Source of the DNA: Chloroflexota bacterium
GTDB taxonomy: Bacteria > Chloroflexota > Dehalococcoidia > Lucifugimonadales > UBA3495
Direction of reading: 5' to 3'
Assembly (NCBI GenBank): GCA_022573285.1
Contig: JACZUF010000008.1
Span: 9,962-73,961 of the forward strand
Length of the DNA: 64,000 nucleotides
Part shown: piece by piece, positions 13,112-63,266 of the stretch
How positions within the stretch are numbered: the first letter of the stretch is position 1
How the letters are laid out: each line of letters opens with the position of its first letter
Translations under genes and position numbers: made by a program
Notes under the pieces: generated by a model
What the model was told of the DNA's origin: nothing
Database searches by the model: none
The model's input: the letters and a program-made list of their open reading frames with translations, nothing else

Positions 13112-14500
13112 ATGTTCATCGAAACGATTAGGATCGAGAGCCTATCCAACAACAGCTACGTGGTCGGTTCTGAACAATCTGGACGGTGCATCGTCATCGA
13201 CCCAGCCCGGGACGTCGATCAATACGTCCAGATCGCGGCCAACCACGGGACGCGGATCGTCTACGCCTTCGAGACCCACGTCCACAACGACTTCGTCTCC
13301 GGCGCCCGTGAACTGGCCGACCAGACCGGTTGCCAGGTGGGAGCCAGCGCCTCCGGAGGGCTTTTGTTCCCGTCAATCCGCCTTCAGGACAACGACGAGT
13401 TCGACCTGGGCGAGTTCCAGATTCGAATCATGCACACCCCCGGCCACACGCCGGAAAGCATCTCGTTCATCGTAGAAGAGCAGGGCCAGCCCACGGCCAT
13501 CTTCACCGGCGGTGCCCTGTTGATGGGCGGCGCGGCCCGCGTCGACCTGTTGGGCGCCAAGGTCGCGCCCTTCTTGGCCCGGTGGCTGCACAACACCATT
13601 CACGAAAAACTATTGAAGCTGCCCGACGACGTTCAGGTCTACCCGACCCACGGCGGAGGATCTTTCTGCTCGACGGCGGCCGGCGGCGGCACCGTGCCCA
13701 CCACCATCGCCCACGAGCGGCTGACCAACCCCTTCGCCGCCGAAGTTGAAGAGTCCAGCTTTGTAAAGTTCGCCCTCACTGGCCTGGGCTCCTATCCCAG
13801 CTACTACAAATACATGGCCGACATCAACCGCCGGGGCCCGGACATCCTGGGAGGCGTACCCCGGCTGGCTTCCTTGACCGCCCTCTCCGTCCGTAGCCAC
13901 CTGGATGGCGACGCAGTATTGGTCGATGCCCGGCCGGAGCGCAATTTCAACACCGGGCACGTGCCAGGCTCCTACGCCGTGCCCCACGGCAACAGCATGG
14001 CGACCTGGGTCGGCTGGGTGGTGCCCTGGGGAAAGCCCCTGGTGCTGCTTTCCGCCGACGCCAGCCACCACGACGATATGGTGCGGCAGTTGATCCGCAT
14101 CGGCTTTGACCGGCTCCACGGTTTCTTGTCCGGCGGCATCGACGCGTGGGGATCGGCCGGTCTCCCGGTCGAAAAAACCAGCGTGCTGGATTTGGATGAT
14201 CTCAAACAAGCCCAGGACCTGCCGGCCGCGCCAATGATTATTGACGTCCGTCAACGCAACGAGTACGCCGGAGGCCATATCCCCGGCGCGCTGAACATCG
14301 AACTGGGCGAGCTCCAGGACCACCTGGACGGCCTGCCCCGGGAACTCCCCGTGGTGACGGTGTGCGCCGCCGGGATGCGGGCCACCACCGCAGGCAGCAT
14401 CCTGCAGCGGGACGGCCGGGAGAACGTGCAGGTGGTGGACGAAGCCGGCACCCCGGCCTGGATCGAGCGCGGTTACCCGTCGGAGACCGGCGAAGAATAA
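13112..14500 (+). CDS. MBL-fold metallo-hydrolase fused to two rhodanese domains (persulfide-dioxygenase/sulfurtransferase-like)
   Basis: N-terminal metallo-beta-lactamase motif ETHVHNDFVSG...HTPGHTPES. C-terminal rhodanese with active-site loop VCAAGMRAT. Confidence 0.8.
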   Translation: MFIETIRIESLSNNSYVVGSEQSGRCIVIDPARDVDQYVQIAANHGTRIVYAFETHVHNDFVSGARELADQTGCQVGASASGGLLFPSIRLQDNDEFDLGEFQIRIMHTPGHTPESISFIVEEQGQPTAIFTGGALLMGGAARVDLLGAKVAPFLARWLHNTIHEKLLKLPDDVQVYPTHGGGSFCSTAAGGGTVPTTIAHERLTNPFAAEVEESSFVKFALTGLGSYPSYYKYMADINRRGPDILGGVPRLASLTALSVRSHLDGDAVLVDARPERNFNTGHVPGSYAVPHGNSMATWVGWVVPWGKPLVLLSADASHHDDMVRQLIRIGFDRLHGFLSGGIDAWGSAGLPVEKTSVLDLDDLKQAQDLPAAPMIIDVRQRNEYAGGHIPGALNIELGELQDHLDGLPRELPVVTVCAAGMRATTAGSILQRDGRENVQVVDEAGTPAWIERGYPSETGEE

Positions 14501-39797: not shown

Positions 39798-41057
39798 TTA
39801 CCGGTTGGTTTTAGGGTTGTAGATCTCGATATCCGGGAAGGCGATGGCCACCGCGAACCAGAGTGACCGGCGGGTGCTCACCCGGTCCAAGCGGCTGCCC
39901 GTCAAAGGCCCGTCTTGGGCCCGGCCGGCAAAGTCCCAGGTGCTTCCGGTCTCCCGGTCGACAAAAGCCCCGTCTTCCTCCCGGTAATCAAAGGTCAGCG
40001 CCTGTCCCCCTATAGCACCGGAGGCCGGAGGACCAGGCGACGGGGAACGGGAGAACGCGCCCACCGACCGGCCGCCCGAGGTCGTAAACACGACGATTGG
40101 CAGTCCGCCTACTTCCGCGTTCACCGCGCCGTCGCCAATGACCCCCAAGGGGAACGCGGTAACGCGGCCGCCGGTCTCCACCGTCAGCACGATCTCACCG
40201 GCGGAGAGCCGTCCGTCGAGTTTGTCTTCGTCCACCGGAAAGGCGAACTGCCCGCGGTTGATACGGTCTTGATACCCGGCGCCGAAGCCGCTGGCGTAAC
40301 GCGCCGCGGTAAAAAGGGACCGTCGTCCCTCGGTCCCGGTGATTAGTAGGGTGCCGGGATGCAGCCCCTTCCAGTCTCCCCAGGGCATGGTTGCCGAAGG
40401 CAACGGCTTCAGGCGCGACCCGGTCAGGGTCCCAACCACGGCCTCCCCGGCCACCTGGAACCAGTAGGACCCGGTCTGGTGGTCGTACATCACCAAATCC
40501 GACTGATATAAGGCGCTGGTGTTGCCGAAGGTTAGGGTCTCGCCGCCAACGTCCCGGCTGAAAACCACGCCGCTGAAGCACAGGGGACAGTAGGTGATCA
40601 GGACCGGAACGCCGCCGATGGTGTCGTTGACGATCTCGTGAAAGTTGAGGACCTTTATGGGAAAGGCAAAGGCCTCGGCGCCCGACTCGTACCCGATGAT
40701 TAAATCGTCGTCGGTCAACCACGGCAGCGCGTCTGAGCCGCCGTATGCCGGTCGGCCCACCGGCATGATGGCGTCCCGGAGGCCGGTTTGCAGTTCGTCC
40801 GAGATCTCGCTCAGGGGCACGAATCGGGCTCTGGTCCTGCCGAAAGTGTCGAAGAGGATGTCCGCAAGGGGCACGCTGTGGATGCTCCGGTCCAGGTCCG
40901 GAACACTTTGCGGCGCCACGGCAGAGCCTTCCGGTGTGCCTGATTGCGTGGCCGCGCCTGTTTGCGCCGCAGTTGGGCCGGCTCCGCCACAGGCGACTGC
41001 CAGGGCCAACAGCCCTGCTGCGAGTGCGGTCCAACGGTTTATCCTTAACCGCTTCAC
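39798..41057 (-). CDS. DUF3179 domain-containing lipoprotein
   Basis: Signal peptide plus lipobox (LALAVACGG). ...EIVNDTIGGVPVLITYCPLCFSGVVFSR...LTFGNTSALYQSDLVMYDHQTGSYWFQ is the DUF3179 core as I recall it. Confidence 0.7.
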   Translation of the reverse strand: MKRLRINRWTALAAGLLALAVACGGAGPTAAQTGAATQSGTPEGSAVAPQSVPDLDRSIHSVPLADILFDTFGRTRARFVPLSEISDELQTGLRDAIMPVGRPAYGGSDALPWLTDDDLIIGYESGAEAFAFPIKVLNFHEIVNDTIGGVPVLITYCPLCFSGVVFSRDVGGETLTFGNTSALYQSDLVMYDHQTGSYWFQVAGEAVVGTLTGSRLKPLPSATMPWGDWKGLHPGTLLITGTEGRRSLFTAARYASGFGAGYQDRINRGQFAFPVDEDKLDGRLSAGEIVLTVETGGRVTAFPLGVIGDGAVNAEVGGLPIVVFTTSGGRSVGAFSRSPSPGPPASGAIGGQALTFDYREEDGAFVDRETGSTWDFAGRAQDGPLTGSRLDRVSTRRSLWFAVAIAFPDIEIYNPKTNR

Positions 41058-41194: not shown

Positions 41195-41271
41195 GCGGCG
41201 CGGGCGGGGCCCGCGTGCCGATGCCACCCGGCCCCGTCCAGAATAGCAGTCCAGATCGAAGGAATTGTTCC

Positions 41272-42564
41272 ATGTTTATCGGATACTTCACTGAACGGCC
41301 TTACCAAGACCCCGAGTCGGGATTCTTCGGCGCCACGGGCAAGCCCATCAAGGACTTGACCCTCAGCAACGGCTCGTATAACCCCGAACTGGGCGCTAAT
41401 CTGTACAACCGCTATCTGGACGAGAAGATCTACGCCGAGGAGATGGGCTTCGACGGCCTGGTGCTGAACGAGCACCACAGCACCCCGTTCTGCATGGGCG
41501 GCGCGATGAACGTCGAAGCTTCCATCCTGGCCCGCATCACCAAACGGGCGAAGATTGTCCTCTTGGGCAATATTCTGCCGATCTGGGACGACCCTCTATG
41601 GCTGGTCGAGCAACTCGCCATGATCGACCTCATCTCCCATGGCCGCCTGGTCTCGGGATGGGTCCGGGGCACCGGGCGCGAAAGCGTGGCCCACAACTCG
41701 CCGCCGCCCTACAACTGGGAACGGTTCAAAGAAGCCCACGAGTTCATCATCAAGGCCTGGACCACTCCCGGCCCCTTCCGCTGGGAGGGCAAGCACTACC
41801 AGTACCGCCACGTAAACCCCTGGGTCCGCCCTTACCAGAAGCCGCATCCGCAGATCTGGCTCCCCGGCGTGGTCAGCCGCGACTCGCTGATGTGGGCCGC
41901 CGAGCAGCGCATCCCCTACATCATGCTCTCAACCGAGATGGAACCCACCCGGCAGGCGTTCCAGCTATACCACGACGCCGCAGCCGAGCAGGGATATGAG
42001 TCCGGCCCTCAGAACCTCGGTTATCTATGGAAGGTCCATGTGGACGAGACCGAGGAATTGGCCGAGCAGACCGCCCGAAAATTCATCCAGGGTCCCAGCA
42101 ATCCATTCTTGGCGGGCAACGAAGGCACCATGAACCCGGCCCTACTCGCCCTGCCGGGGCTATCCTCCCGCCACCGGGTGCTGCCCACCCAGTCAGTGGC
42201 CACCGCAGCCCGGGGCGGAGCGGGCGGCGTCCTGGGCCGGCCCTTCGAACAGCAGATCAAGGACTACACCATCATCACCGGGACTCCCAAGACCGTGATC
42301 CCCAAGATCCGCCACGTCCTGGAGTACATCCGGCCCGGCAGCGTGTTCTTCTGGGACGGCGACGGCGCCATGACCCACGACGACGCCATGCGCAGCCTGA
42401 GGCTCATGGGCGAAGAGGTCATACCCGCGGTCCGCGAGATCGCCGACGACCTGGAACTGCCCGGCTCCTTCGAGGTGGACACGGCCACCGGCAAACCCAT
42501 CGAAGAATCCCCAGAGACACCGCAGGCCCCGTTGGTTGCCGAAGACAGCCAAAGCCAGGACTAG
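41272..42564 (+). CDS. Luciferase-like (LLM class) flavin-dependent oxidoreductase
   Basis: MFIGYFTERPYQD...AEEMGFDGLVLNEHHSTPFCMGG...LLGNILPIWDDP... LLM pattern. ATG 41272 is used rather than GTG 41215. Confidence 0.8.
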   Translation: MFIGYFTERPYQDPESGFFGATGKPIKDLTLSNGSYNPELGANLYNRYLDEKIYAEEMGFDGLVLNEHHSTPFCMGGAMNVEASILARITKRAKIVLLGNILPIWDDPLWLVEQLAMIDLISHGRLVSGWVRGTGRESVAHNSPPPYNWERFKEAHEFIIKAWTTPGPFRWEGKHYQYRHVNPWVRPYQKPHPQIWLPGVVSRDSLMWAAEQRIPYIMLSTEMEPTRQAFQLYHDAAAEQGYESGPQNLGYLWKVHVDETEELAEQTARKFIQGPSNPFLAGNEGTMNPALLALPGLSSRHRVLPTQSVATAARGGAGGVLGRPFEQQIKDYTIITGTPKTVIPKIRHVLEYIRPGSVFFWDGDGAMTHDDAMRSLRLMGEEVIPAVREIADDLELPGSFEVDTATGKPIEESPETPQAPLVAEDSQSQD

Positions 42565-49473: not shown

Positions 49474-51027
49474 CTACTTCCCCTCTTTAATCCAGTCGGA
49501 TATCCGCTCGCCGATCATCATGGTGGTCACGTTGGTGTTGGCGCGGATGCAATCGGGCATTATGGAGGCGTCCACAATCCGGAGTCCCTCCAGCCCATGG
49601 ACCTTGCCGTACTGGTCGACCACGGCCATGGGGTCGGAGTCCGGGCCCATCTTGCAAGTGCAGGAGATGTGCTGCGAGGTGGTCACTTCACGGTACAGGT
49701 ACTCGTCCAGCGCCTCATCCGAAGCCAGTTCGGCGTCGGTTGGCTCGATGCGCTCTTGAATGATGTCCTTGAAGGCCGGGTCCTCGCCCAGGGCCACGCA
49801 GATGCGTATCGTCTCCCGCAGGCGCTCCCGGTCGAACTCCTCCTCCAGGTAGCGGTAGTCCAAGAAGGGCTGCTCCGTTGGGTCGGCGGACTGGAGCCGC
49901 AGCTCTCCGGCGCCGGCAGCCAGCTGGATGCCGCTGGTCATCCGGATGCCCACGGGCTCCATCCGGTTGCCGCCCCGGTTGACCCGCTGGGTGGCGAATG
50001 ACTGCATGGAAACCTTCATGTCGTTGCGCAGGTTGGACCCGCCCGCGGTGTAGCGCAGGGTTGCCTGCATCCGGGGAGCGTTGCCGTCCAACTCAACCCC
50101 CGGCTTGGTGCGCCAGGTCACCCACACCAGCGGGTGGTCGCGCATGTTCTGGCCCACTCCGGGTGCGTCGTGGACCACCGGGATGCCGAACTCCTGTAGA
50201 TGTGCCGCCGGTCCGACGCCGGACAGCATCAGGATATGGGGCGAGCCGATGGCCCCGGAACTCAAGATTATCTCCGAGCCTTCGACCACGAAGTGCTCGC
50301 CGCCGCTCTCCACTTCGACGCCCGTGGCCCTCTTCCCGTCGAACAAGATGCGGCGGACGTGGCAGTTAGGCCGGATGGTCACGTTGAGACGGTGTCTGAT
50401 CTGGTCCAGATAGCCCAAAGCCGTGCTCATGCGGATGCCGTTGGGGTTATTCAGCGGCGTCGGGCCCACGCCGGTCGAATCGGGGTGGTTGTGGTCGGGG
50501 GAATCGGGGTAACCGGCGGCCCGGCAGGCCAGATAGAAGGCCTCGGTGGCTGGATGCCAGGTGTCCCGGGCGAAGCGGTGCATCATGATGGGCCCTTCCG
50601 TGCCGTGAAAGTCGTCGCTAAAGTCCGTGTCGGTCTCTATCTTCCGGAAATAGGGCAGGCAGTCCTGGTATCGCCACTCGTCGTTGCCCATCTCCGCCCA
50701 GGAGTCGTAGTCCTCGGGCACGCCCCGGAGGAAGACCTGACCGTTGATGGCGCTGGAGCCGCCGGTGACCTTGCCCCTGGGCACCAGCATCTCCGGGGCC
50801 TTTTCCGTGGCCTTGCCAATGAACTGCCAGTTGTGGTCGCTGACCATGATGTCGATCTCGGTTGCGTAGCCGAACTTCACCTCCTCTGGCAGGTGCTCGA
50901 AATCCGGGTAGTCCGGTCCCGCCTCGATCAGTAAGACGTTGTTGTTCGGGTCTTCGGAAAGCCGGGTCGCCACGATGGAACCGGCTGAACCGGCGCCCAA
51001 AACTATGTAGTCGTATTTCATGTCCAC
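49474..51027 (-). CDS. GMC-family oxidoreductase (choline/alcohol dehydrogenase-like)
   Basis: [27 protein letters not shown]...[10 protein letters not shown]...[14 protein letters not shown]... and the C-terminal ...[10 protein letters not shown]...VDASIMP... GMC signatures. Confidence 0.9.
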   Translation of the reverse strand: [517 protein letters not shown]

Positions 51028-51117
51028 TCCGGTAAAAGTGCAGTCCTTCCGCGGTGCACTCGTTGCGCTGCGGAAGGACTGAGGTTCTTGATCGGGCCGG
51101 AATATTCCGGCGGAGTT

Positions 51118-51879
51118 TTAGATCAACGCCTCTGGAGTTTGGATACCCTCCAGGTCCGCCTCGGTGGCCGGGTCCTGGAGCGTGAGGTCCAAGCCGGTCT
51201 GCATGTAATGATAAACCTGCTTAAGGTGGTGGGTGCTGTGGCTCAAGATGATGTTAAGCAACTCCAACACCGTAACCTCGCCGCCGTAATGGGCGGGCAC
51301 CTCGAGGTCGAAGGCCTCTTGATTGCCGCTGTTGAGGAAGGCCACGATGTCGCGGCGCACCTTTTCGCCATACTCGGCCATCTGAGTGGCGGTATGTACG
51401 TCTTTCAAGCGCTCGTCGGAAGCCCGCATGTCCTCTTGGCTCATGCTGCCCACCTTATGGCTCAGGTAGGCCACCTCGGGGAAAGACATGATGTGGAGAA
51501 CGGTGCGCCGCAGGGTCCAGGGCCGCCACGGCACGTCGGTGTCCAATTGCTCCTGGGTGAACTGGGCGGTGGTGCGGACCGCCGCGCCCAGGACCTTGTC
51601 GTATTTTCCGGCCAGCCAGTCGGTCTTGCCCGAGAGGTCGATCTGGACGTTGAGCTTGAGCGCGGGAATCAGCTTCTTGGGGAAGTAGCCGATGATGACC
51701 TCTTCGTCGTCGATGATGGTCACGGGAAGCGACTTTATCCCCCTGCGGCGCAGGTCTTCGACAGCTTGTTGGTCTTCCAGTACGTTGTGGTGCTCATACT
51801 GAACACCGTTGGACTTCAGGAATTCTTCCACCGTCCGGCAACTGAATCAACCAGGTTGCGTGTAAACGTGGACGTTCAT
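51118..51879 (-). CDS. Glutaredoxin-like / DinB-like fusion protein, candidate selenoprotein (UxxC; in-frame TGA at 51849..51847)
   Basis: ATG 51879 with GGAGGG 4 nt upstream gives MNVHVYTQPG-TGA-FSC-RTVEEFLKSNGVQYEHHNVLED...LPVTIIDDEEVIIGY (Grx/NrdH fold), then a DinB-type C-terminus (...LLNIILSHSTHHLKQVYHYM). The track ORF begins only at GTG 51831, in the same frame. Confidence 0.6.
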
Positions 51880-52107
51880 GGCACCCTCCAATCGCTGTAG
51901 CCCAGGCGTTTTAGAACGGGAAAGCCCGGACAGGGCCTCAAAAACCATGGATATCCTAACACGAGTTTAGGCCTAAAGTTCGTGACACGAGTTTTGGCCG
52001 GCAGGCGTGCTTGCCCTATAAATGCCCCTGTGACAGACTAGATAAATTGCTGTCATGCCGACAACACCAACCACAACCCGTAGCCCCAGCACCACGGCGG
52101 CCACTCT

Positions 52108-53994
52108 TTGAAGCTAACCGCAGCGTATTCTGTCGCGGCAGCCCTTCTGTTGGCGTTGGCTGCCTGCACTCAGTCCGGTGGGCGGGACGTTCCGGCAACC
52201 ATCCCAATCGCCGCCGATCCTCCGGTTGCGGCCGCGACCCCCACCCCGCCGCCCACCACCGTTTCCCAGCCAACCCTGGCCCCTCTGACCACGGCGAAAG
52301 CGACGGCCACACCCATTCCAACTGCCACACCAGCGCCGCCCACCGCCACCCCGCAGCCAACGGCCACGCCAGCACCAACAGCAACACCCACGCCGGTTCC
52401 CACGGCAACCCCTTTACCGACCCCACAGGCGACTCCCACGCCGGTCCCACCTGCCTCTGGCTCTGCCGTGTTCGACCTGGGTGGCGGGATCTTCTTGAGC
52501 GTCACACCAGAGGACCCCTTCGCGGGCCGCGACGTCTCTTTCGTCCTGTCAGGCCTGACCCCGTGGCAACCGGTGACGGTCTCGTTCATAGACCCACAGG
52601 GCGTCGCCGCTGCCTGGATCACGGCCGACGACCTGCGCCTGGTGGGCCGGGACGGAGCAGTAGCCACCTCCTTCCTCATGTACCCAACGGCTTCGGGACA
52701 GTTGGACTGGGACCGCTACGGCATCCAAGACGAGGCGGGCGCCTGGTCGGTGGACATCGACCTGGACGGCAGCGTGTCCTCGACCACCTATACTCTGGGC
52801 GAGCTGCACCTGGGCGGCCAGGAACCGGTGTCGGTGGGAGCGGAGTTGACCCGCAATTCCGGCTCAGGCTCAACTGTTTACTACTCGGACCTGGTTCCAA
52901 CGGCTTTGGTGGTCGACCTCCAAGAATACCTGAGCGACTCCGCCTTGCTGCTGGAGCGCCGGACCGGGACGGAGATGGGCCAGCTCCCCGACCTCTACCT
53001 GTTGGCCAACCGGGATGTGATGGACCAGGTCGGCGCCGCAACCGGAGTCGATCTGGGTTTCGAAGACGGGTATTACAAGAGCTTTGGGACCCGGCCCGGC
53101 ATCTACATGCGGACCGACCTGCTGACCACCGAGGTGCGCCGTTTGTTGGTCCACGAGTACGTGCACCTGGTGTTCGACGACCTGGCCAACCAGAGGTCTC
53201 TGCCGGCCTGGCTGGCCGAGGGGCTTTCCCGTTATTACGAATTCGACATCGTGTTGTCGGGTCCCCGCGCCAATGCCACTCTGCTGCGGAAATATTCGGC
53301 CTCTGACTTAGCGCGCACGGCGGCCCAGTCAGACGGACTGTTCAGCCTCGCTACCCTTGAGAGTCAGTCGGACTGGAATTCCCCCATCGATCAGGACCAA
53401 CTATCCCTCCAGTATGCCGAAGCCTACATGGCCGTCCGTTATTTGAACGAGACCTACGGCCCTCTGTCCGGTAAAGAGGCGGTGGTGGACATCGGCCTCG
53501 GGTTCGGTTTGTCCCATGCCATCGAGACCGTTACCGGACTAAACTTTGACACCTTCGAGTCCGAGTTCCGCCGTTGGCTGGGGAAGTGGGAAGACCCAGT
53601 TCGGGCATCCATCGCCGAATATCTCGCGTCCTTGGAACCCATTCTGGCCGACCAAGAGGCTATCTTGGACCAGCGGACGAATGACCTCTCAACTCGAATG
53701 ACCGCCAGTGAGGCGGCCATCAGGCGCGTTTCCCGGCTTACGTCCACAGAGGCTCTGGTCGATCGCACGCAGAGCCTCTCCCCGCCGGAAGGCGCCTTGG
53801 AACTCCACCAAGAAGCCGAGGAATACCTCGGCCGGGTCCTGGTTTGGCTCAACCTGGAGTTCCAGTACGCCGACACTGTGGACGACTTCTACCTGGTTGC
53901 CGGCAATGCAATGATTCCAGAGATCAATGCCAGGGGACTTCTGCTCCAACGCAATATGTCCGACCTGCAGTTCCTCCTCCATCTAGGAGAGTAG
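52108..53994 (+). CDS. Lipoprotein with Pro/Thr-rich linker and HExxH (peptidase MA-like) domain
   Basis: MKLTAAYSVAAALLLALAAC lipobox. About 90 aa of (A/T)TP repeats. LLVHEYVHLVFDDL...WLAEGLSRYYE zinc-metallopeptidase motif. TTG start. Confidence 0.7.
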   Translation: MKLTAAYSVAAALLLALAACTQSGGRDVPATIPIAADPPVAAATPTPPPTTVSQPTLAPLTTAKATATPIPTATPAPPTATPQPTATPAPTATPTPVPTATPLPTPQATPTPVPPASGSAVFDLGGGIFLSVTPEDPFAGRDVSFVLSGLTPWQPVTVSFIDPQGVAAAWITADDLRLVGRDGAVATSFLMYPTASGQLDWDRYGIQDEAGAWSVDIDLDGSVSSTTYTLGELHLGGQEPVSVGAELTRNSGSGSTVYYSDLVPTALVVDLQEYLSDSALLLERRTGTEMGQLPDLYLLANRDVMDQVGAATGVDLGFEDGYYKSFGTRPGIYMRTDLLTTEVRRLLVHEYVHLVFDDLANQRSLPAWLAEGLSRYYEFDIVLSGPRANATLLRKYSASDLARTAAQSDGLFSLATLESQSDWNSPIDQDQLSLQYAEAYMAVRYLNETYGPLSGKEAVVDIGLGFGLSHAIETVTGLNFDTFESEFRRWLGKWEDPVRASIAEYLASLEPILADQEAILDQRTNDLSTRMTASEAAIRRVSRLTSTEALVDRTQSLSPPEGALELHQEAEEYLGRVLVWLNLEFQYADTVDDFYLVAGNAMIPEINARGLLLQRNMSDLQFLLHLGE

Positions 53995-54320: not shown

Positions 54321-55862
54321 ATGAAATACGACTACATCATCGTCGGCGCCGGCTCCGCTGGCTGCGTCATCGCCAGCAGGCTTTCGGACGACCCCGGCAA
54401 GTCCATATTGCTGTTGGAGGCGGGGCCGGACTATCCGGAATTCGAACATTACCCCGACGACCTGAAATTTGGTTACAACCAGACGGCATCGGCCGTGGAC
54501 GCGCCTCATAATTGGTCTTTCCAGGGGAACACGACCCCAGAGCAGCCCGATCCCATGCCCGTCCCCAGGGGCCGGGTGGTAGGCGGCTCCAGCGCCATCA
54601 ACGGCCAGATGCTGCTGCGGGGAATCCCGGAGGACTACGACGGATGGGCCGCCATGGGCAACGACCAATGGGGTTTCACCGACGTGCTGCCCTATCTGAG
54701 AAAACTGGAGACCGACACCGACATCCACGACGATTTCCACGGGTCGGAGGGGCCGATCCCGGTGCGCCGCTTCAAAGAGGACACCTGGCTGCCCGCCCAG
54801 AAGGCCTTCCATGCGGCCTGCCGCGCCCAAGGCCATCCCCACGATCCGGACATGAACCACCCCGAGTCGGGCGGCGTTGGGCCGATACCCATGAATAACC
54901 CCAACGGCATCCGCATGAGCACGTCACTGACCTATCTGGCCGCTTGCCGGCACCGCTTGAACCTGACCGTCAAGCCCGACGTTGTCACCCACCGGGTTAT
55001 CTTTGAAGGCAAGCGGGCCACCGGGGTCGAGGTGGAGAGCAATGGCGAACGCTTCATGGTCGAGGGCTCGGAGATAATCCTAACCTGCGGCGCCATCGGC
55101 TCCCCGCAACTGCTGATGCTATCCGGGGTCGGTCCTGCCGCGGTGCTGAATGGCCTGGGAATACCAGTGGTCCTCGAAGCGCCCGGAGTGGGACAGAACT
55201 TGAGAGACCATCCGAACATCCGCGTGCCCGTAGAGGTCCTAGACGATTTCCCCCTCAACCCGGAGGACCCACGGACCCAGGTGGCCGTCCGGTACACCGC
55301 CGCGGGCTCTGACCTTAGAAACGACATGCAGATCATGGCGTCCTCGTTCTCGTCTCCGATCTCCGGAGACCCCTTGGAGGCCGAGGGCATCCGGTTCACC
55401 TGTATCTTGGAGTTGGCCTATGGCTCCGGCCACCTGAAGATCACCTCCACCGACCCCAACGTTCAGCCCGAACTGAACTACAACTACTTCCAAGACGACC
55501 CCCGGGACCTCGCCCGGCTCCGGGAGGCGGTCAGGAAGTGCGTTCAGGTCTTGGAACACGACGACTACAAGCCCATAGTGAAAAGGCTCTTGGAGCCCGA
55601 GCCCGGCGAGTTGGAATCGGACGAGGCCTTGGACAACTGGCTGAAACGGAACGTCACCACGTCCCAACACATATCCGGCACCTGCAAGATGGGGCCCGAC
55701 GACGACCCCATGGCGGTGGTGGACCAGCAGTGCAGGGTCAAAGGACTGGAAGGCCTGCGCGTGGCCGACGCGTCCGTCATGCCCAACTGCATCCGGGCCA
55801 ATACCAACTGCACCACGATCATGATTGCCGAGCGGGTGGCCGACTGGATCAATCAGGCTTAA
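54321..55862 (+). CDS. GMC-family oxidoreductase (close paralog of 49474..51027)
   Basis: [25 protein letters not shown]...[23 protein letters not shown]...[14 protein letters not shown]...[10 protein letters not shown]... Confidence 0.9.
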   Translation: [513 protein letters not shown]

Positions 55863-55873
55863 CAGGAGCATCG

Positions 55874-56914
55874 ATGCGTTTCGGCAGCTTCGTTTTCTCG
55901 ATCAGCGCCGACCCGAACGCCGACCATGAGGTGATCGCCCAGACCCTCCGCGAGATAGAACTTGCCGAGGAGGTGGGTTTCGACGCCGTTTGGCTCACCG
56001 AGCACCACTTCGACGGCGCGGTGGCCTACGCCGACCCCGTGGTCTTCGGGGCCGCCGTGGCCGTCCGGACCAAACGGGTCAAGATCGGCTTCGCGGTGGT
56101 TGAGATGGCGCTGCACCACCCGGTGCGCCTGGCGGTGCAGACATCACTGCTGGATAACCTGAGCAATGGCCGGCTCATCGTGGGCACCGGCCGGGGCTCG
56201 GCCTTCAACGAATACGAGTACATCGGTTTCGGCATCACCCTGGAACAGGGCCGGGAGATGCTGGACGAGGCAGAGGAACTGTTGGTGAAGGCCTGGACCG
56301 GCAAAGACGTGGTGCATAAAGGCCGCTTTTGGGACCTGTCGTTCCCCGGCCTGCGGCCCCAGCCCTACCAGAAACCCCATCCGCCCATCGTCCGGGCCTG
56401 CATCTCCGAGGAATCAATGGTCGAAATGGGCCAGGCCGGAAGGCCGGTGTTGATCGGCGTCCAGACCCTGGACACCCTCCGCCACCGGTTTGGCCGCTAC
56501 CGGAGTGCGCTGGAAGAATCGGGGCTGAGCGAGACCCAGGTGGAGGATGTCCTGGACCAGACCTGGGCCCAACGGTTGCTATTCGTCTGCGACAGCGACC
56601 AGCAGGGGCTGGAGGTGGCCGAGGAAGCCCTGGCCCGGTACCGGGCCCACCTGCTGGACGCCCGGGTCCGGTTCAATCCCGGTGGCGCGCCGCCTCGTCC
56701 TCCAGGGACCCCTCCCCCAGCGGGCGAAGTGGTGGAACATGCCTTCTTGGCCGGGACGCCGGCCACCGTGGCGGGCAAGCTGGAGGAGCTGCGGGACATC
56801 GGCGTCCGCAATATTCTGCTGAACCCGAACGTGGGCCAGATACCGGCGCAGCAGGTGGAGCGGTCAATGCGGCTGTTCGGTGAAAAAGTGATGCCCAGGT
56901 TCCGGGACGACTAA
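55874..56914 (+). CDS. Luciferase-like (LLM class) flavin-dependent oxidoreductase
   Basis: AGGAG RBS plus ATG 55874: MRFGSFVFSISADPNADHEVIAQTLREIELAEEVGFDAVWLTEHHF.... The track start 55538 lies inside the GMC gene. Confidence 0.85.
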   Translation: MRFGSFVFSISADPNADHEVIAQTLREIELAEEVGFDAVWLTEHHFDGAVAYADPVVFGAAVAVRTKRVKIGFAVVEMALHHPVRLAVQTSLLDNLSNGRLIVGTGRGSAFNEYEYIGFGITLEQGREMLDEAEELLVKAWTGKDVVHKGRFWDLSFPGLRPQPYQKPHPPIVRACISEESMVEMGQAGRPVLIGVQTLDTLRHRFGRYRSALEESGLSETQVEDVLDQTWAQRLLFVCDSDQQGLEVAEEALARYRAHLLDARVRFNPGGAPPRPPGTPPPAGEVVEHAFLAGTPATVAGKLEELRDIGVRNILLNPNVGQIPAQQVERSMRLFGEKVMPRFRDD

Positions 56915-56916
56915 AC

Positions 56917-57730
56917 GTGACTAAACAGAGCCAATTTGACCTAACGGGCAAAGTAGCCGTCGTCACCGGCGGCAACGGCGGGCTTGGCCTGGGCATCGCC
57001 TGGGACTGGCCGGCGCTGGGGCCAACATTGTGATCGCCGCCCGCAGCGTCGAGAAGACCGCTCAGGCCCTGGAGGACATCCGGGCCCTGGGCGTCGAGGC
57101 CCGCAGCATCACCGTCGATATCACCCAGGAGCCGGCGGTCCAGCGCATGGTCGCTGACACGATGGACCATATGAGCCGGCTGGATATCCTGGTGAACAAC
57201 GCGGGCATCGCCATCAGGGCCCAGCCCCAGGAGTTGACCGCCGCCCAGTGGGACTCGGTGGTCGACGTGAACCTGCGGTGGGCATTTCTGGCATCCAAAG
57301 AGGCCTATCCCCACATGGTCAAGGCCGGCGGCGGCAAGATCATCAACGTGGGTTCCATGTATTCGGTCTTCGGCAGCGATTGGGGCGCGCCCTACGCCGC
57401 CAGCAAGGGCGGCCTGGTCCAACTGACCAAGAGCTCCGACCGGAGTCGACCCCGACGCGTCGGGGGATGAAATCGGACCTGGCGGTGGCCTGGGCCAAGG
57501 ACAACATCCAGGTGAACGCCGTCCTTCCCGGCTGGTTCGTAACCGACCTGACCCGGGGCATCCCCGACGCCGACCCGGAGCGCTACGACAACATCAACCG
57601 CCGGATACCCACCGGCCGCTGGGGCGAACCGTCGGAACTCGGCGGCGCCGCCGTCTTTCTAGCCAGCCAAGCCTCGAATTATGTCACCGGCGCGGTGCTG
57701 GCGGTGGACGGGGGCTATTCCGCGGCTTAG
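56917..57730 (+). pseudogene. SDR-family oxidoreductase split over three frames (1-nt frameshift plus 44-nt insertion)
   Basis: Frame 1: VTKQSQFDLTGKVAVVTGGNGGLGLGIA. The frame changes near 57000. Frame 2: LGLAGAGANIVIAARS...NNAGIA...YAASKGGLVQLTKS. After the insertion 57435-57478, frame 3: LAVAWAKDNIQVNAVLPGWF...VDGGYSAA. Confidence 0.8.
57435..57478. other. 44-nt palindrome-bearing insertion inside the SDR gene
   Basis: TCCGACCGGAGTCGACCCCGACGCGTCGGGGGATGAAATCGGAC. Contains the perfect 16-nt palindrome CCCCGACGCGTCGGGG and inverted ends TCCGA/TCGGA. Deleting it restores ...QLTKSLAVAWAKDN.... Confidence 0.75.
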
Positions 57731-59533: not shown

Positions 59534-59678
59534 CAGGTTGTCCCCCCTCAAGTTTTCTGCTCAGACATTCTATCCCACCGGCGCCGGCGCAGCCGGGTTT
59601 TCTGGGCACCCTCCATGACAGACGCTTTGGCGACGCGGATTATAATTGCGGCGTTCAATGCAAGAGCATGAGGTTTCC

Positions 59679-61208
59679 ATGAAATACGACGTGATTATCG
59701 TTGGCGGCGGTTCCGCCGGCTGCGTACTGGCCGCCCGATTGTCCGAAGACGCGGACCGGTCGGTCCTCCTCCTAGAGGCCGGACCAGACTACCCGGACCT
59801 GGACCGGATGCCGGACGAGATCAAACATGACCACAACCAGCGGGCGTCCGAGGCCGGCGCCCAGCACAATTGGTCGTTTCAGGGTGCCACCGGCCCACAA
59901 GGCGGCAGGACCGCCGCAGTGGCCAGGGGCAAGGTCCTTGGGGGCACCAGCGCCATCAACCACCAGATTTTCCTCCGGGGATTGCCGGGGGATTTCGACC
60001 ACTGGGCCGAACTCGGCAACGACGAGTGGTCCTACGCCAAGGTGCTTCCGTATTTCCGGAAATTGGAGACCGACCTGGACATATCAGGCGATTTCCATGG
60101 AACATCGGGCCCAATCACGGTTAAGCGGCACAAGCCGGAGGATTGGCTGCCATTGCAAAGAATCTTCCACTCGGCCTGCTTGGCGGCCGGCTACCGGGAC
60201 GACCCGGATATGAACGACCCGGACGGTGAGGGCGCCGGGGCAATTCCTCTGAATTATGTCGAAGGCGTCCGGATCAGCACCGCCATCGGATACATTGACC
60301 CCTGCCGAAACCGGCTCAACTTGACCATCAAGCCCAACGTCACTGTCCACAGGGTAGTATTCGAGGGAAAACGGGCGGTGGGGGTAGAGGCGGAGAGCGG
60401 CGGGGAGGTATTCGATCTTTCTGGAGAAACAATCATCTTGAGCGCCGGGGCCATCGCCTCTCCCCAACTATTGATGCTCTCGGGCGTCGGGCCGAAGTCG
60501 GCTCTGGACCGCTTGCGGATTCCAGTGGTCCACGAATCGCCCGGTGTGGGCCGGAACATGAAGAACCATCCGGCGGTCACGCTGCGGTTCCAACCGGTGG
60601 ATGGATACACCCTGGAAAGCGGCTCGCCGAGGAACCAGGTCGGCCTGCGCTTCACCGCCAAGGGTTCCACGGTTAAAAACGACATCCAGATTCAGCCGCT
60701 TACGTCCGGGCCTTTCGGCCACGAAGCCGACGAGATACGCGTCGGCTGCCGGTTGGAGTTTCCCCGAGGAGCAGGCGAACTGACCATCACTGCGGCCGAC
60801 CCGAACGTCCAACCCGACTTGGATTACCGGTTTCTGGAAGATGCATCAGACAGGGAGAGGCTGCGCGAGGCCGTCCGTGAATGCGTCCGGCTATTCGAGA
60901 ACCAAAGGTTTAAAGCGGTCATAAGCGGCCGCATCGCACCCACGGAAGAAGAAGTCGGCTCCGATGCTTTGCTGGACAGTTGGATCGCCGGTAATCTGTC
61001 CATCGCCGGCCACACCTGCGGCACCTGCCGGATGGGCCCGGCATCCGACCCCGATGCGGTGGTCGATCAATGGTGCCGGGTGCGCGGGGTGGACGGACTG
61101 CGGGTGATCGACGCATCGGTGATGCCGGAGATTCCCCGGGCCAACACCAATGCCACGGCCATCATGATCGCTGAAAGGGCGTCTGATCTCATCATTGGAA
61201 TCCCGTAG
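59679..61208 (+). CDS. GMC-family oxidoreductase
   Basis: [40 protein letters not shown]...[14 protein letters not shown]...[10 protein letters not shown]...IDASVMP... Confidence 0.9.
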   Translation: [509 protein letters not shown]

Positions 61209-62400: not shown

Positions 62401-62579
62401 CCCGGACTAGGGATATCTAAGTGTTCTCCGCCAACCGGGGGCGCGCCAGCGCCCTTTTTTATTGCCATATTTACGTGGTTACCCGGATGGCCGGCCCACG
62501 TAAACTCGCTAATCTTCATCCATTGGATTCGCGGGGCAACCGTATCTCCCGGGATTCATCAAATAAGTTGAGGCAAACC

Positions 62580-63266
62580 ATGACCGCCATCGAATCAAAG
62601 AGCGAGAGCCCAAGTATCGAAGAGATCGCAAAGAACCTTAACGATGCGGGCATCCCACCAGATTTCGGGGATGACAACTCACGGCTTCTGATCAAAATGT
62701 GGCGTACTCTCGGACAAGGCCAACCAGTCACCCAGCAGATGACCGCCCAGATCGCCGAGGGCTTGGGAATCCCCTTTGAAAGGGCCGACGAGTTTCTGCG
62801 GCAAATCACCGAAAGGGATTCCAATGACAATATCATCGGATTGGTCGGACTGTCGCTGAACCAGGAATGGGCCCACCGGTTAATCGTTAACGGCAGACCC
62901 CTCCGGACCTGGTGTGCCTGGGACACCCTGTTCTTGCCCGCGATGCTCGGCGAAACCGTGGTGGTTGAATCGGAGTCGCCGCTCAGCGGCACGCTGGTCC
63001 GCCTTACGGTCACTCCGAACGAAGTTGAAAACTCCACACCTGAGACCGCGGTGGTCTCCGTAGCAACAATCGACCCCAAAGTCCACGATGTGTCGTCGGT
63101 CGAGGCGATCTGGAGTAATTTCTGCCATCAGGTGTACTTCTTCCCATCCGTCGAAGAAGCCCAGGAGTGGGCCCGGGGCAAGAGCAATATCGCTATCTTG
63201 ACTGTGCAAGAAGGGTACGAGTTGGGGAAATTGGCCTTCTCCAATCTACGCCGATTCGCTCAATAA
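62580..63266 (+). CDS. merB: Organomercurial (alkylmercury) lyase family protein
   Basis: ...RTWCAWDTLFLPAML... (Cys-x2-Asp) and ...WSNFCHQVYFFPSVEEAQEW... (second catalytic Cys) align with the MerB C96/D99/C159 regions as I recall them. Confidence 0.75.
   Translation: MTAIESKSESPSIEEIAKNLNDAGIPPDFGDDNSRLLIKMWRTLGQGQPVTQQMTAQIAEGLGIPFERADEFLRQITERDSNDNIIGLVGLSLNQEWAHRLIVNGRPLRTWCAWDTLFLPAMLGETVVVESESPLSGTLVRLTVTPNEVENSTPETAVVSVATIDPKVHDVSSVEAIWSNFCHQVYFFPSVEEAQEWARGKSNIAILTVQEGYELGKLAFSNLRRFAQ

What the first reader, a model, noticed from the sequence alone, without database searches (positions are those of the whole stretch)
51804..51879. In-frame UGA at the first Cys of a glutaredoxin CxxC motif: candidate Sec-containing Grx-like/DinB fusion protein
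- The ORF track starts this gene at GTG 51831.
- 48 nt upstream, in the same frame, there is an ATG (51879..51877) with GGAGGG 4 nt before it.
- Reading from that ATG gives MNVHVYTQPG-[TGA]-FSC-RTVEEFLKSNGVQYEHH.... This is exactly the beta1-CxxC-alpha1 start of a glutaredoxin/NrdH fold, with TGA (51849..51847) replacing the first Cys, i.e. UxxC.
- Without the extension the protein would be a Grx fold lacking its redox motif.
- From 10 nt after the UGA the mRNA can form a hairpin: lower stem UGCCG/CGGUG (including a G-U pair), a 3-nt bulge, GAC/GUC, an internal loop, then GGAA-GAA-UUCC.
- This puts the G-starting apical loop about 25 nt after the UGA, compatible with a bacterial SECIS.
- The C-terminal half is DinB-like, and I do not recall that fusion for a selenoprotein.
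- The gene lies head-to-tail upstream of a GMC oxidoreductase.
Basis: partly seen in the sequence, partly recalled or inferred. Interest (0 to 1): 0.8.

Follow-up and report, generated by a model that had tools for sequence, protein, structure and literature searches.

The report
Selenocysteine glutaredoxin-DinB fusion protein gene
This gene of a deep-ocean SAR202/Dehalococcoidia bacterium almost certainly reads an in-frame UGA as selenocysteine in the active site of a glutaredoxin domain fused to a DinB-type metal domain; databases record it almost everywhere as a truncated "DinB family protein".

Summary
On the minus strand, ATG 51879 (preceded by GGAGGG) opens a 253-codon frame whose codon 11 is TGA (51849..51847). 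That codon sits where the first Cys of a glutaredoxin CxxC motif belongs.

- TGA is at this codon in 107 of 108 related loci (45-96% identity). The one exception (CGA) is on a 2x-coverage contig.
- The codons before the TGA are under the same purifying selection as those after it (pN/pS 0.22 against 0.23; 0.92 just 5' of the start).
- Distant full-length homologs carry Cys at this column (QPG-C-SSC). Four other subfamilies carry TGA.
- The closest solved structure of the N-terminal domain is cGrx1 of Clostridium oremlandii, a natural selenoprotein whose Sec aligns with this TGA.
- The proposed hairpin fits the published bacterial SECIS model. 50 of 66 orthologs pass, against 19% of control positions and 0 of 3 Cys-form genes. 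Covariation is modest.
- The C-terminal domain is a DinB/YfiT fold that keeps the three-His metal site. A GMC oxidoreductase gene follows in 19 of 23 genomes.

Sec-machinery genes could not be checked for this genome. The fusion is absent from a 2026 catalogue of 119 prokaryotic selenoprotein families. I rate it a new variant of a known kind, of moderate interest.

The parts
51883..51888 (-). Ribosome-binding site GGAGGG, 4 nt before the true start codon
   Evidence: Read directly. An RBS-like motif is present in 103 of 105 orthologous loci.
51877..51879 (-). True start codon ATG
   Evidence: ATG at this position in 101 of 106 orthologs. pN/pS drops from 0.92 just upstream of it to 0.22 downstream.
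51850..51876 (-). Codons 2-10 (NVHVYTQPG): strand beta1 of the glutaredoxin fold, missed by gene callers
   Evidence: Pfam Glutaredoxin starts at residue 3. The model has beta1 at residues 3-7. Codons 2-10 have pN/pS 0.22.
51847..51849 (-). In-frame TGA, codon 11: predicted selenocysteine, first position of the UxxC redox motif
   Evidence: TGA in 107 of 108 related loci. Cys at this column in distant homologs. Aligns with the native Sec position of cGrx1.
51838..51840 (-). TGC, Cys14: resolving cysteine of the U-F-S-C motif
   Evidence: Invariant in all 24 genome orthologs. Aligns with the second Cys of CPHC in cGrx1.
51829..51831 (-). GTG (Val17): the start used by the ORF caller; not a real start
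   Evidence: Codon 17 is ATG, GTG or TTG in only 35 of 106 orthologs, and is otherwise CTG, CTT, CTA, TTA, GTA or CTC.
51804..51840 (-). Hairpin 1, candidate bacterial SECIS: lower stem UGCCG/CGGUG, GGAC/GUCC, upper stem GGAA/UUCC, apical loop GAA (51825..51823) 21 nt after the UGA
   Evidence: Fits the published bSECIS model at -9.6 kcal/mol. 50 of 66 orthologs pass, against 35 of 180 control positions and 0 of 3 Cys-form genes. Pair 18-35 covaries: GC 28, UA 23, UG 3. Same-position stems of unrelated sequence occur in L028, L026 and L110.
51789..51807 (-). Hairpin 2: GGUGUUCA-GUA-UGAGCACC, 40-61 nt after the UGA; role unknown
   Evidence: 95% of cells paired, with one compensatory G-C to A-U change. 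It explains the near-invariant GGU and GUU codons. z is about -3 against synonymous recoding in 8 of 10 sequences. It is kept in L024 and L028 and lost in the KKNGVE subgroup.
51655..51879 (-). Glutaredoxin/NrdH-like domain, residues 1-75
   Evidence: Pfam PF00462. The model shows b1-a1-b2-a2-b3-b4-a3. Foldseek TM 0.92-0.96 to cGrx1 7c10/7c12. Pro52 is invariant.
51196..51633 (-). DinB/YfiT-type helical bundle, residues 83-228, with His129 (51495..51493), His214 (51240..51238) and His218 (51228..51226)
   Evidence: Pfam DinB_2 and DinB. Foldseek matches to YfiT 1rxq, 3dka, 6iz2, 3gor and mycothiol S-transferase 8f5v. The three His are invariant or nearly so and align with YfiT His67, His160 and His164.
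51118..51120 (-). Stop codon TAA of the 253-codon gene
49474..51027 (-). GMC oxidoreductase gene, about 90 nt downstream on the same strand; likely functional partner
   Evidence: Pfam GMC_oxred_N and GMC_oxred_C. Found directly downstream at 78-96% identity in 19 of 23 genomes.

Best explanation
The gene at 51879..51118 (minus strand) encodes a 253-residue selenoprotein. Translation starts at ATG 51879. UGA at codon 11 is decoded as selenocysteine by SelB and Sec-tRNA(Sec), directed by a stem-loop in the coding sequence that starts about 8-10 nt after the UGA and has its apical loop 21 nt downstream. The product has an N-terminal NrdH/YruB-type glutaredoxin domain whose redox motif is U-F-S-C, fused to a C-terminal DinB/YfiT-type helical bundle that keeps the three-His metal site.

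Inferred mechanism. The DinB domain binds a metal and a substrate, as the thiol S-transferases of this fold do. The selenolate of Sec11 is the attacking nucleophile, and Cys14 resolves the resulting selenenylsulfide. Together they form a self-contained thiol/selenol-dependent reductase or transferase. It probably deals with reactive products (peroxide, quinones, aldehydes) of the GMC flavoenzyme encoded directly downstream.

What is shown here: the recoding signature, the folds, the conserved residues and the synteny. What is inferred: Sec insertion itself, the chemistry and the substrate.
For: Conserved recoding site:
- TGA is at codon 11 in 23 of 23 species-level genomes and in 105 of 106 loci once metagenomes are added.
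- It is also TGA in the 45%-identity, AT-rich L024 and in two entries that databases show as Trp.

Both sides of the TGA are coding:
- pN/pS is 0.22 for codons 2-10, 0.23 for codons 12-60 and 0.92 for the triplets 5' of the ATG.
- The ATG and RBS are conserved, and no start codon is conserved after the TGA.

Sec/Cys pair:
- Distant full-length homologs have QPG-C-SSC at this column.
- Sec forms occur in at least four further subfamilies: L026, L027, L028 and L110.

Standard genetic code:
- Six Pfam-supported window genes end in TGA, and the L018 ortholog itself ends in TGA.

Fold:
- AF2 model with pLDDT 93 and pTM 0.86, residue 11 at the N-cap of helix alpha1.
- The best PDB match for the N-terminal domain is cGrx1 (TM 0.96, 38% identity). 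cGrx1 is a native selenoprotein with U(C)PxC (PMC7642778), and its Sec position aligns with this TGA.

SECIS:
- The window hairpin meets the four published criteria.
- 76% of orthologs pass, against 19% of control positions and 0 of 3 Cys-form genes.
- Pair 18-35 covaries.
- Synonymous sites are frozen exactly at the paired codons CGG, AAG and UCC.

Lineage: BSepDB lists Dehalococcoidia MAGs with 49 and 46 selenoprotein genes (PMC13326102).

DinB domain: Pfam and Foldseek hits to YfiT and mycothiol S-transferase, with the His triad aligned.

Operon-like synteny with the GMC oxidoreductase gene.
Against: - No selA, selB, selD or tRNA-Sec could be shown for this genome. None lies in the 64-kb window or in any fetched locus, and the rest of the genome is not available.
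- The SECIS evidence is statistical rather than decisive. The model passes at 19% of control positions, and 16 of 66 orthologs fail my implementation of it.
- The covariation at pair 18-35 may reflect only one or two evolutionary events, and the window sequence itself has G.A at that pair.
- The Glu-Glu-Phe-Leu codons are self-complementary by nature.
- The H1 region of the window sequence is no more stable than synonymously recoded versions (z -0.25).
- There is no experimental evidence for Se incorporation.
- The proposed chemistry and the link to the GMC enzyme rest on analogy and gene order only.
- I could not measure the distance from Sec11 to the His triad in the model.
Confidence: 0.88

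Rival explanations
1. The TGA is a real stop. The functional protein starts downstream, at GTG 51831 or later, and is a DinB protein with a remnant glutaredoxin fold lacking beta1 and the redox motif. This is how databases annotate it.
For: All but one of the 120 best database homologs are called this way, at 201-238 aa. The ORF tool also starts the gene at GTG 51831.
Against: Gene callers pick many different starts (237, 233, 221, 220, 214, 203 and 201 aa), because none is conserved. Codon 17 is a start codon in only 35 of 106 orthologs. The 10 upstream codons, the ATG and the RBS are conserved with pN/pS 0.22. A glutaredoxin fold without beta1 and the CxxC would not fold or function normally, and the invariant PG-TGA-FSC would have no explanation.
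Confidence: 0.04
2. UGA is read as a standard amino acid (Trp, Gly or Cys), either through a reassigned code or a suppressor tRNA, rather than as selenocysteine.
For: Two database entries translate the codon as Trp (P0142 and P0214). When selenium is scarce, the Sec machinery of some bacteria can insert Cys at Sec codons (general knowledge).
Against: The two 'Trp' entries have TGA in the DNA, so they are gene-caller artefacts. TGA ends six Pfam-supported genes in this window and also the L018 ortholog itself. The column is Cys in homologs and native Sec in cGrx1, which is the classic Sec signature. Trp or Gly at the catalytic position of a CxxC motif would abolish redox activity. A conserved hairpin follows the codon only in the TGA forms.
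Confidence: 0.04
3. The gene is a pseudogene, or the TGA is an assembly or sequencing error in a gene that really has TGC or TGT.
For: One ortholog (L025, P0100) has CGA at this codon.
Against: 107 independent assemblies from many projects share the TGA. The gene is otherwise intact, with strong purifying selection. The one CGA sits on a contig labelled 2x coverage whose neighbouring luciferase-like gene is split into four fragments, so that contig is the likely error.
Confidence: 0.01
4. Sec is inserted, but the element that recruits SelB is the second hairpin (51807..51789), or a combined two-hairpin structure, rather than the hairpin the reader proposed.
For: Hairpin 2 is the part most clearly favoured by codon choice (z about -3). 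It has a GU-containing apical loop and one compensatory pair. It is kept in relatives at 42-45% identity, including one with 69% GC where GGT and GTT are unusual codons.
Against: Its loop lies about 47 nt after the UGA, outside the 16-37 nt range of the published model. It is absent from the KKNGVE subgroup and from L026, L027 and L110, all of which still have TGA and a hairpin-1-type stem-loop.
Confidence: 0.15

Closest known systems
cGrx1, the selenoprotein glutaredoxin 1 of Clostridium (Alkaliphilus) oremlandii OhILAs (PDB 7c10, 7c12; PMC7642778)
   Same: Same small NrdH/YruB-like glutaredoxin fold (TM 0.92-0.96, 38% identity). Sec is at the first position of a UxxC motif at the N-cap of helix alpha1, and it aligns with the TGA here. 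The conserved (T)V(K/E)EFL helix follows in both.
   Different: cGrx1 is a stand-alone protein of 84 residues with the motif U-P-H-C, from an anaerobic Firmicute. It is proposed to reduce selenoprotein MsrA. The protein here has U-F-S-C, carries a 170-residue DinB domain, and comes from marine Chloroflexota.
DinB/YfiT-fold thiol S-transferases: YfiT/BstA bacillithiol S-transferase (1rxq) and mycothiol S-transferase (8f5v)
   Same: Helical-bundle fold (Foldseek probability 1.00, TMt 0.60-0.82). Three His at the positions of YfiT His67, His160 and His164. Pfam DinB_2 and DinB score above their cut-offs.
   Different: Sequence identity is only 11-19%. NCBIfam YfiT scores 17 bits against a cut-off of 160. 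The known enzymes are single-domain and use a diffusible low-molecular-weight thiol. Here a redox domain with Sec is fused on, which may replace or recycle that thiol.
Canonical glutathione S-transferases with a catalytic Cys (Omega and Xi classes)
   Same: Same domain logic: an N-terminal thioredoxin-fold domain carrying the nucleophile, followed by an all-helical C-terminal domain. Foldseek returns many GSTs as weak whole-chain matches.
   Different: The match is poor (TMq 0.26-0.35, rmsd 13-17 A). The helical domains are unrelated folds. This is an analogy of architecture, not homology.
Cys-form Grx-DinB fusion proteins (for example P0199, P0251, P0237; sources name them only 'glutaredoxin' or 'hypothetical protein')
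   Same: Same two-domain architecture, same conserved Pro52 and His triad, and a CxxC where this protein has UxxC.
   Different: 20-25% identity to the orthologous lead sequence P0100 in the family alignment. They have Cys instead of Sec and no SECIS-like hairpin after the Cys codon. Their gene neighbourhoods differ. They are also uncharacterised.
Uxx-star glutaredoxin-like selenoproteins (NCBIfam NF041212, NF041114, NF041211)
   Same: A glutaredoxin-like fold that contains Sec, with weak profile similarity (39 bits).
   Different: The score is below the cut-off (39.4 against 66). Judging by the family name, the Sec in those families sits three residues before the stop codon rather than in the N-terminal CxxC position, and they have no DinB domain.

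Membership tests
Bacterial selenoprotein gene (Sec-UGA recoding) | In-frame UGA conserved at the same codon in orthologs, with protein-coding conservation on both sides | tested here: met
   TGA in 107 of 108 loci. pN/pS 0.22 upstream and 0.23 downstream, against 0.92 in the 5' UTR.
Bacterial selenoprotein gene (Sec-UGA recoding) | Homologs with Cys aligned to the UGA, in a redox motif | tested here: met
   QPG-C-SSC in at least 17 distant full-length representatives. CPHC of cGrx1 also aligns.
Bacterial selenoprotein gene (Sec-UGA recoding) | bSECIS stem-loop just downstream: 3-9 nt loop with G in its first two positions, 4-16 bp upper stem, 16-37 nt from the UGA, MFE <= -7.5 kcal/mol (PMC13188914) | tested here: met
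   The window has loop GAA, a 4-bp upper stem, 21-nt spacing and -9.6 kcal/mol. 50 of 66 orthologs pass, against 35 of 180 controls and 0 of 3 Cys forms. Specificity is limited and covariation is modest.
Bacterial selenoprotein gene (Sec-UGA recoding) | selA, selB, selC (tRNA-Sec) and selD in the same genome | not testable with these tools
   None in the window or in the fetched loci. Indirect support: Dehalococcoidia MAGs with 46-49 selenoprotein genes in BSepDB.
Bacterial selenoprotein gene (Sec-UGA recoding) | Selenium demonstrated in the protein | not testable with these tools
   Needs 75Se labelling or mass spectrometry.
Glutaredoxin fold family (Pfam PF00462; NrdH/YruB-like) | Profile match above the curated cut-off, covering the whole domain | tested here: met
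   PF00462 at 42.9 bits against 22.9, residues 3-60 on profile positions 1-59 of 60.
Glutaredoxin fold family (Pfam PF00462; NrdH/YruB-like) | Thioredoxin-type fold with the C/UxxC at the N-terminus of alpha1 and a conserved Pro before beta3 | tested here: met
   Model secondary structure and residue 11 at the helix N-cap. TM 0.96 to cGrx1. Pro52 is invariant. That this Pro is cis is inferred.
Glutaredoxin fold family (Pfam PF00462; NrdH/YruB-like) | Membership of a named equivalog (NrdH, YruB, Grx3) | tested here: not met
   NCBIfam YruB 62.2 bits (cut-off 88.55), NrdH 50.6 (85.75), GRX_bact 28 (90). It has the glutaredoxin fold but belongs to none of these named families.
DinB/YfiT superfamily | Profile match above the cut-off and the helical-bundle fold | tested here: met
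   DinB_2 at 37.4 bits against 24.8, and DinB at 32.1 against 23. Foldseek matches to 1rxq, 3dka, 6iz2, 3gor, 2p1a and 8f5v at probability 1.00.
DinB/YfiT superfamily | Three-His metal-binding site | tested here: met
   His129, His214 and His218 are invariant or at least 90% conserved. They align with YfiT His67, His160 and His164. That those three are the YfiT metal ligands is recalled from the YfiT structure paper and was not checked here.
DinB/YfiT superfamily | Thiol S-transferase activity with a low-molecular-weight thiol | not testable with these tools
   Biochemistry is needed. NCBIfam YfiT equivalog scores 17.1 bits against a cut-off of 160, so this protein is not a YfiT ortholog.
Uxx-star glutaredoxin-like selenoproteins (NF041212) | Profile score above the curated cut-off | tested here: not met
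   39.4 bits against 66.

The most novel reading that the evidence does not exclude
This is an uncatalogued selenoprotein family, widespread in deep-ocean SAR202. A selenocysteine-bearing glutaredoxin domain is hard-wired to a DinB metal centre. The tethered selenol would take the place of the diffusible thiol cofactor (bacillithiol, mycothiol or glutathione) that DinB-fold transferases normally need. That would give a GST-like enzyme built by convergence. It would work with the adjacent GMC flavoenzymes during oxidation of recalcitrant organic matter.
Probability: 0.25. Interest if true: 0.65.

Novelty: new variant of a known kind. Interest (0 to 1): 0.5.

Why it matters
SAR202 bacteria are among the most abundant microbes of the dark ocean. 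This gene was found in every one of the 23 species-level genomes the scan retrieved, and in about a thousand database entries.

- **Annotation.** Nearly all of those entries are mis-annotated as truncated "DinB family proteins" lacking their active site. Correcting the gene model restores a complete redox enzyme.
- **Selenoproteome.** It adds a domain architecture (UxxC glutaredoxin plus DinB) that is absent from the 2026 catalogue of 119 prokaryotic selenoprotein families. This fits the recent finding that marine Dehalococcoidia are unusually rich in selenoproteins.
- **DinB function.** It gives a concrete, testable lead on the poorly understood DinB superfamily. A covalently attached selenol/thiol redox partner implies that the DinB domain performs thiol-dependent chemistry.
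- **Physiology.** The conserved pairing with a GMC oxidoreductase suggests a substrate context.
- **Method.** It shows how scattered start-codon calls among homologs can flag a missed Sec codon.

Tried and rejected
- **Rfam:** a scan of the whole window at gathering thresholds found nothing.
- **tRNA-Sec:** ARAGORN found none in the window or in L001-L025, only a tmRNA in L018.
- **RNAalifold:** on 24 close orthologs, and again on 71 sequences, it gave only a weak consensus with a covariation term of about 0. The sequences are too similar and two pairing registers coexist.
- **Register A of the upper stem** (GGAA/UUCC, triloop): 93% paired, but no covariation beyond shuffles.
- **All-against-all column pair listing**: uninformative.
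- **Synonymous-recoding test:** the H1 region of the window sequence is not unusually stable (z -0.25), and other windows in the gene reach z -2.5 to -2.9, so stability alone does not identify the SECIS.
- **Other TGA-interrupted ORFs in the window:** a scan for those with Cys/Sec-type motifs found no credible candidate besides this gene.
- **Sec machinery in the window:** Pfam annotation of 46 further window ORFs found no SelA, SelB or SelD domains.
- **Literature:** no paper in the library combines 'selenoprotein' with 'DinB' in a relevant way. SAR202 plus selenocysteine gave nothing specific. Supplements of the deep-Sep paper do not mention DinB or Dehalococcoidia, and no supplements of the BSepDB paper are held. 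Peng et al. 2016 does not mention Chloroflexi.
- **Missing DNA:** no DNA was available for P0134 or P0183.
- **Single-sequence PDB search with the DinB domain:** only marginal hits. The profile and fold searches were needed.
- **Considered and rejected:** a genetic-code reassignment, a pseudogene, and reinitiation at GTG 51831 (see the rival explanations).
Full report
**1. The observation**

On the minus strand the sequence reads GGAGGG (51888..51883), then 4 nt, then ATG (51879..51877). The next codons are AAC GTC CAC GTT TAC ACG CAA CCT GGT, followed by TGA (51849..51847), then TTC AGT TGC CGG ACG GTG GAA GAA TTC CTG and so on. The ORF tool starts the gene at GTG 51831 and gives 237 aa.

With the extension and Cys in place of the TGA, Pfam Glutaredoxin aligns from profile position 1 at residue 3 (42.9 bits, cut-off 22.9). 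DinB_2 covers residues 101-222.

**2. Is the TGA conserved, and is the upstream part translated?**

A protein search found 995 homologs. Of the best 120 (at least 67% identical), all but one are N-terminally truncated calls of 201-238 aa named 'DinB family protein' from Dehalococcoidia or SAR202. The scatter of predicted starts was the first sign that no real start follows the TGA.

I fetched DNA for 23 species-level genomes and 80 metagenome contigs.

- Codon 11 is TGA in 105 of 106 orthologous loci.
- It is also TGA in a 45%-identity relative from an AT-rich genome (L024).
- Two database proteins that show Trp at this column have TGA in their DNA.
- The one exception is CGA in L025. It lies on a contig labelled 2x coverage whose neighbouring gene is broken into four pieces, so it is probably a read error.

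The upstream codons show synonymous variation with conserved amino acids.

| Region | pN/pS |
|---|---|
| Codons 2-10 (before the TGA) | 0.22 |
| Codons 12-60 | 0.23 |
| Codons 61-250 | 0.38 |
| Nine triplets 5' of the ATG | 0.92 |

The ATG is present in 101 of 106 loci and an RBS-like motif in 103 of 105. Codon 17, the annotated GTG, is a possible start in only 35 of 106. TGA is an ordinary stop codon in this organism. Six Pfam-supported genes of the window end in TGA, and the L018 ortholog itself ends in TGA.

**3. The Sec/Cys pair**

An exhaustive search of 1.84 billion representatives found a small family of 158 representatives. Its distant full-length members (250-276 aa) read V[YF]WQPG-C-SSC-LKTKEFL, with Cys exactly at the TGA column.

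Other distant members are again truncated calls that begin right after the motif. Every one I could check has an in-frame TGA at that column with its own start codon and RBS:

- L026: VG-U-FTC
- L027: PA-U-TSC
- L028: PG-U-FSC
- L110: PG-U-FTC

Sec and Cys therefore alternate across the family at the catalytic position of a CxxC motif. This is the standard signature of a selenoprotein.

**4. Fold and closest relatives**

An AlphaFold2 model was led by the full-length ortholog P0100 with 44 aligned sequences. It is confident, with pLDDT 93.1 and pTM 0.86. It shows b1(3-7), a1(12-23), b2, a2, b3, b4, a3, which is a classic glutaredoxin fold with residue 11 at the N-cap of a1. A helical bundle follows (helices 83-105, 123-143, 148-182, 204-228).

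- **N-terminal domain.** Foldseek against the PDB gives cGrx1 of Clostridium oremlandii as the best match (7c12 and 7c10; TM 0.96 and 0.92, rmsd 0.7-1.1 A, 38% identity). The paper on these structures states that cGrx1 is a native selenoprotein with a U(or C)PXC motif, and that the Sec was replaced by Cys for crystallography (PMC7642778). In the sequence alignment the first Cys of its CPHC falls on our TGA column.
- **C-terminal domain.** It matches YfiT (1rxq), YjoA (3dka), DR0053 (6iz2), 3gor, 2p1a and mycothiol S-transferase (8f5v).
- **Metal site.** His129, His214 and His218 are invariant or nearly so in the family. They align with YfiT His67, His160 and His164. I recall these as the metal ligands of YfiT.
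- **Other conserved residue.** Pro52 is invariant and sits at the position of the thioredoxin-fold cis-Pro.
- **NCBIfam.** No model reaches its cut-off, including the selenoprotein-specific Uxx-star models. No curated family covers this protein.

**5. The RNA element**

Synonymous variation is suppressed at specific codons: CCT-GGT before the TGA, then CGG (Arg15), AAG (Lys22), TCC (Ser23), GGT-GTT-CAG (residues 25-27) and CAC-CAC (residues 30-31). The codons in between vary freely.

Two hairpins explain this pattern.

It pairs GGAC with GUCC, which uses the frozen CGG, AAG and UCC positions, and has an upper stem GGAA/UUCC with a GAA loop.

- In other orthologs the same region forms a fully paired 11-bp stem (L067, L107, L024).
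- In L028 (42% identity, 69% GC) a 12-bp stem of unrelated sequence sits at the same place.
- L026 and L110 have a perfect ACGAAAGA-GUU-UCUUUCGU stem-loop.
- On 65 distinct sequences, pair 18-35 covaries (G-C 28, U-A 23, U.G 3). This links a synonymous Thr third position to the second base of codon 22.
- Cells with double changes exceed all 500 shuffles (38 against 22 +/- 2.9), and 86% of cells are paired against 36-54% for slid controls.

Caveats: these changes may trace to very few events. The window sequence itself has G.A at that pair. The alternative triloop register shows no covariation.

I applied the published bSECIS criteria from PMC13188914, Fig. 2 legend.

| Sequence set | Result |
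|---|---|
| Window hairpin (nt 8-42 after the UGA) | passes: -9.6 kcal/mol, 4-bp upper stem, loop GAA, spacing 21 nt |
| Orthologs | 50 of 66 pass |
| Arbitrary in-frame control positions | 35 of 180 pass |
| Distant Sec forms L026, L027, L109, L110 | pass |
| L028 | fails on the loop rule only |
| Cys-form genes (which encode the same KEFL helix) | 0 of 3 pass |

*Hairpin 2* (51807..51789, GGUGUUCA-GUA-UGAGCACC) is the part most clearly favoured by codon choice, with z about -3 against synonymous recoding in 8 of 10 sequences. It has one compensatory pair and is kept in L024 and L028. However, it lies about 47 nt from the UGA. It is also lost in a subgroup (KKNGVE) that instead extends the lower stem of hairpin 1. 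Its role is unexplained.

**6. Sec machinery**

The window and all fetched loci lack tRNA-Sec and SelA, SelB or SelD domains. That is uninformative for 64 kb of a genome of several megabases, and the tools did not let me read the rest of any genome.

The indirect evidence is as follows. The BSepDB paper lists 'Dehalococcoidia bacterium UBA1141' with 49 selenoprotein genes and 'Dehalococcoidia bacterium 10f4566d-...' with 46. Both are among the richest bacteria in that database (PMC13326102). The second name has the same style as several MAGs that carry this gene. This remains the main gap.

**7. Context and likely function**

- A GMC oxidoreductase gene follows about 90 nt downstream on the same strand in 19 of 23 genomes. 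A second GMC paralog lies upstream on the opposite strand in many of them.
- The window holds three GMC oxidoreductases, two luciferase-like monooxygenases, an SDR and a phosphotriesterase-family gene, along with other genes.
- DinB-fold enzymes with the three-His site include bacillithiol and mycothiol S-transferases. A glutaredoxin domain with UxxC is a disulfide or selenenylsulfide exchanger.

I therefore infer a two-domain thiol/selenol-dependent reductase or transferase. Sec11 attacks a substrate or a mixed disulfide held at the DinB metal site, and Cys14 resolves the intermediate. The enzyme probably handles reactive products of the neighbouring flavoenzyme. This part is inference from folds, conserved residues and gene order. 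I put it at about 0.4, against about 0.9 for the selenoprotein call itself.

**8. Novelty**

Sec-containing glutaredoxin (PF00462, UxxC) is an experimentally verified selenoprotein family. A 2026 review tabulates 119 prokaryotic selenoprotein families and subfamilies, and none involves a DinB domain (PMC13188914). No paper in the library links selenoproteins with DinB fusions. Sources name the Cys forms only 'glutaredoxin' or 'hypothetical protein'.

Automated resources such as BSepDB may already hold this gene under a generic Grx label, and I could not check that. I class the finding as a new variant of a known kind. The recoding mechanism and the Grx active site are familiar. The fusion architecture, its abundance in SAR202 and its systematic mis-annotation are new.

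**9. Verdict**

Confidence that this is a genuine Sec-encoding gene is 0.88. Interest is moderate (0.5). A specialist would not be surprised by another UxxC thioredoxin-fold selenoprotein. The DinB fusion and the ecological prominence of the host still make it worth reporting and testing.

Noticed in passing
window 51120..51021 (minus strand), between the Grx-DinB stop and the GMC oxidoreductase start: The ~100-nt stretch from the stop codon to the GMC start folds at -44.3 kcal/mol. It contains a palindrome, CCGGAATATTCCGG (51110..51097), and a perfect 12-bp stem, CAGTCCTTCCGC (51081..51070) paired with GCGGAAGGACTG (51052..51041), followed by CACTTTTACC. The long stem is kept at the same place in L001, L007, L013, L020 and L023, and with compensatory changes in L002 and L005 (GUCCGUUCG/CGAACGGAC). 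It is absent in L015 and L017. It could be an attenuator, a terminator or an mRNA-stabilising hairpin between two co-oriented genes.
   Followed up: partly
window 51807..51789 (minus strand): A second conserved hairpin (GGUGUUCA-GUA-UGAGCACC) lies 40-61 nt after the UGA. It is favoured by codon choice (z about -3) and kept in relatives at 42-45% identity. It lies outside the spacing of the SECIS model, and one subgroup lacks it. Its function is unknown.
   Followed up: partly
whole window (33 Pfam-supported genes): TGA is the rarest stop codon (TAG 15, TAA 12, TGA 6) even though the window is 61% G+C. From general experience, TGA is usually the commonest stop at this G+C content. This may be linked to heavy use of UGA for Sec in this lineage, or it may be chance in a small sample.
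   Followed up: no
window about 57000..57730 (+): The short-chain dehydrogenase gene matches only the C-terminal third of the adh_short_C2 profile (positions 156-236 of 236), and the upstream part is out of frame. It is either a frameshifted pseudogene or an assembly error.
   Followed up: partly
window 39798..41057 (-), 62421..63266 (+), 13112..14500 (+): These are uninterrupted ORFs of families that have selenoprotein forms in other organisms according to the 2026 review: DUF3179, a MerB-like alkylmercury lyase, and a metallo-beta-lactamase/rhodanese fusion. No in-frame TGA was seen in them here.
   Followed up: partly
window 49474..51027 (-), 54321..55862 (+), 59646..61208 (+); 41215..42564 (+), 55895..56914 (+): There are three GMC oxidoreductase paralogs and two luciferase-like monooxygenases within 20 kb. 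The arrangement is largely syntenic across the SAR202 genomes fetched.
   Followed up: partly
L025 3001..3762 (P0100) and its neighbours: This is the only ortholog with CGA (Arg) instead of TGA. It sits on a long-read contig labelled 2x coverage, where a luciferase-like gene is split into four ORFs. The CGA is most likely a base-call error rather than a natural Arg variant.
   Followed up: partly
L109 (P0142) and L110 (P0214): Public gene predictions translate the Sec codon as Trp, so these short contigs were evidently called with a TGA=Trp code. Such entries could mislead Sec/Cys homology searches.
   Followed up: yes
window 52108..53994 (+): The Peptidase_MA_2-family protein has a long Pro/Thr/Ala-rich, low-complexity N-terminal region. 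On the opposite strand this region produces many spurious overlapping ORFs.
   Followed up: no
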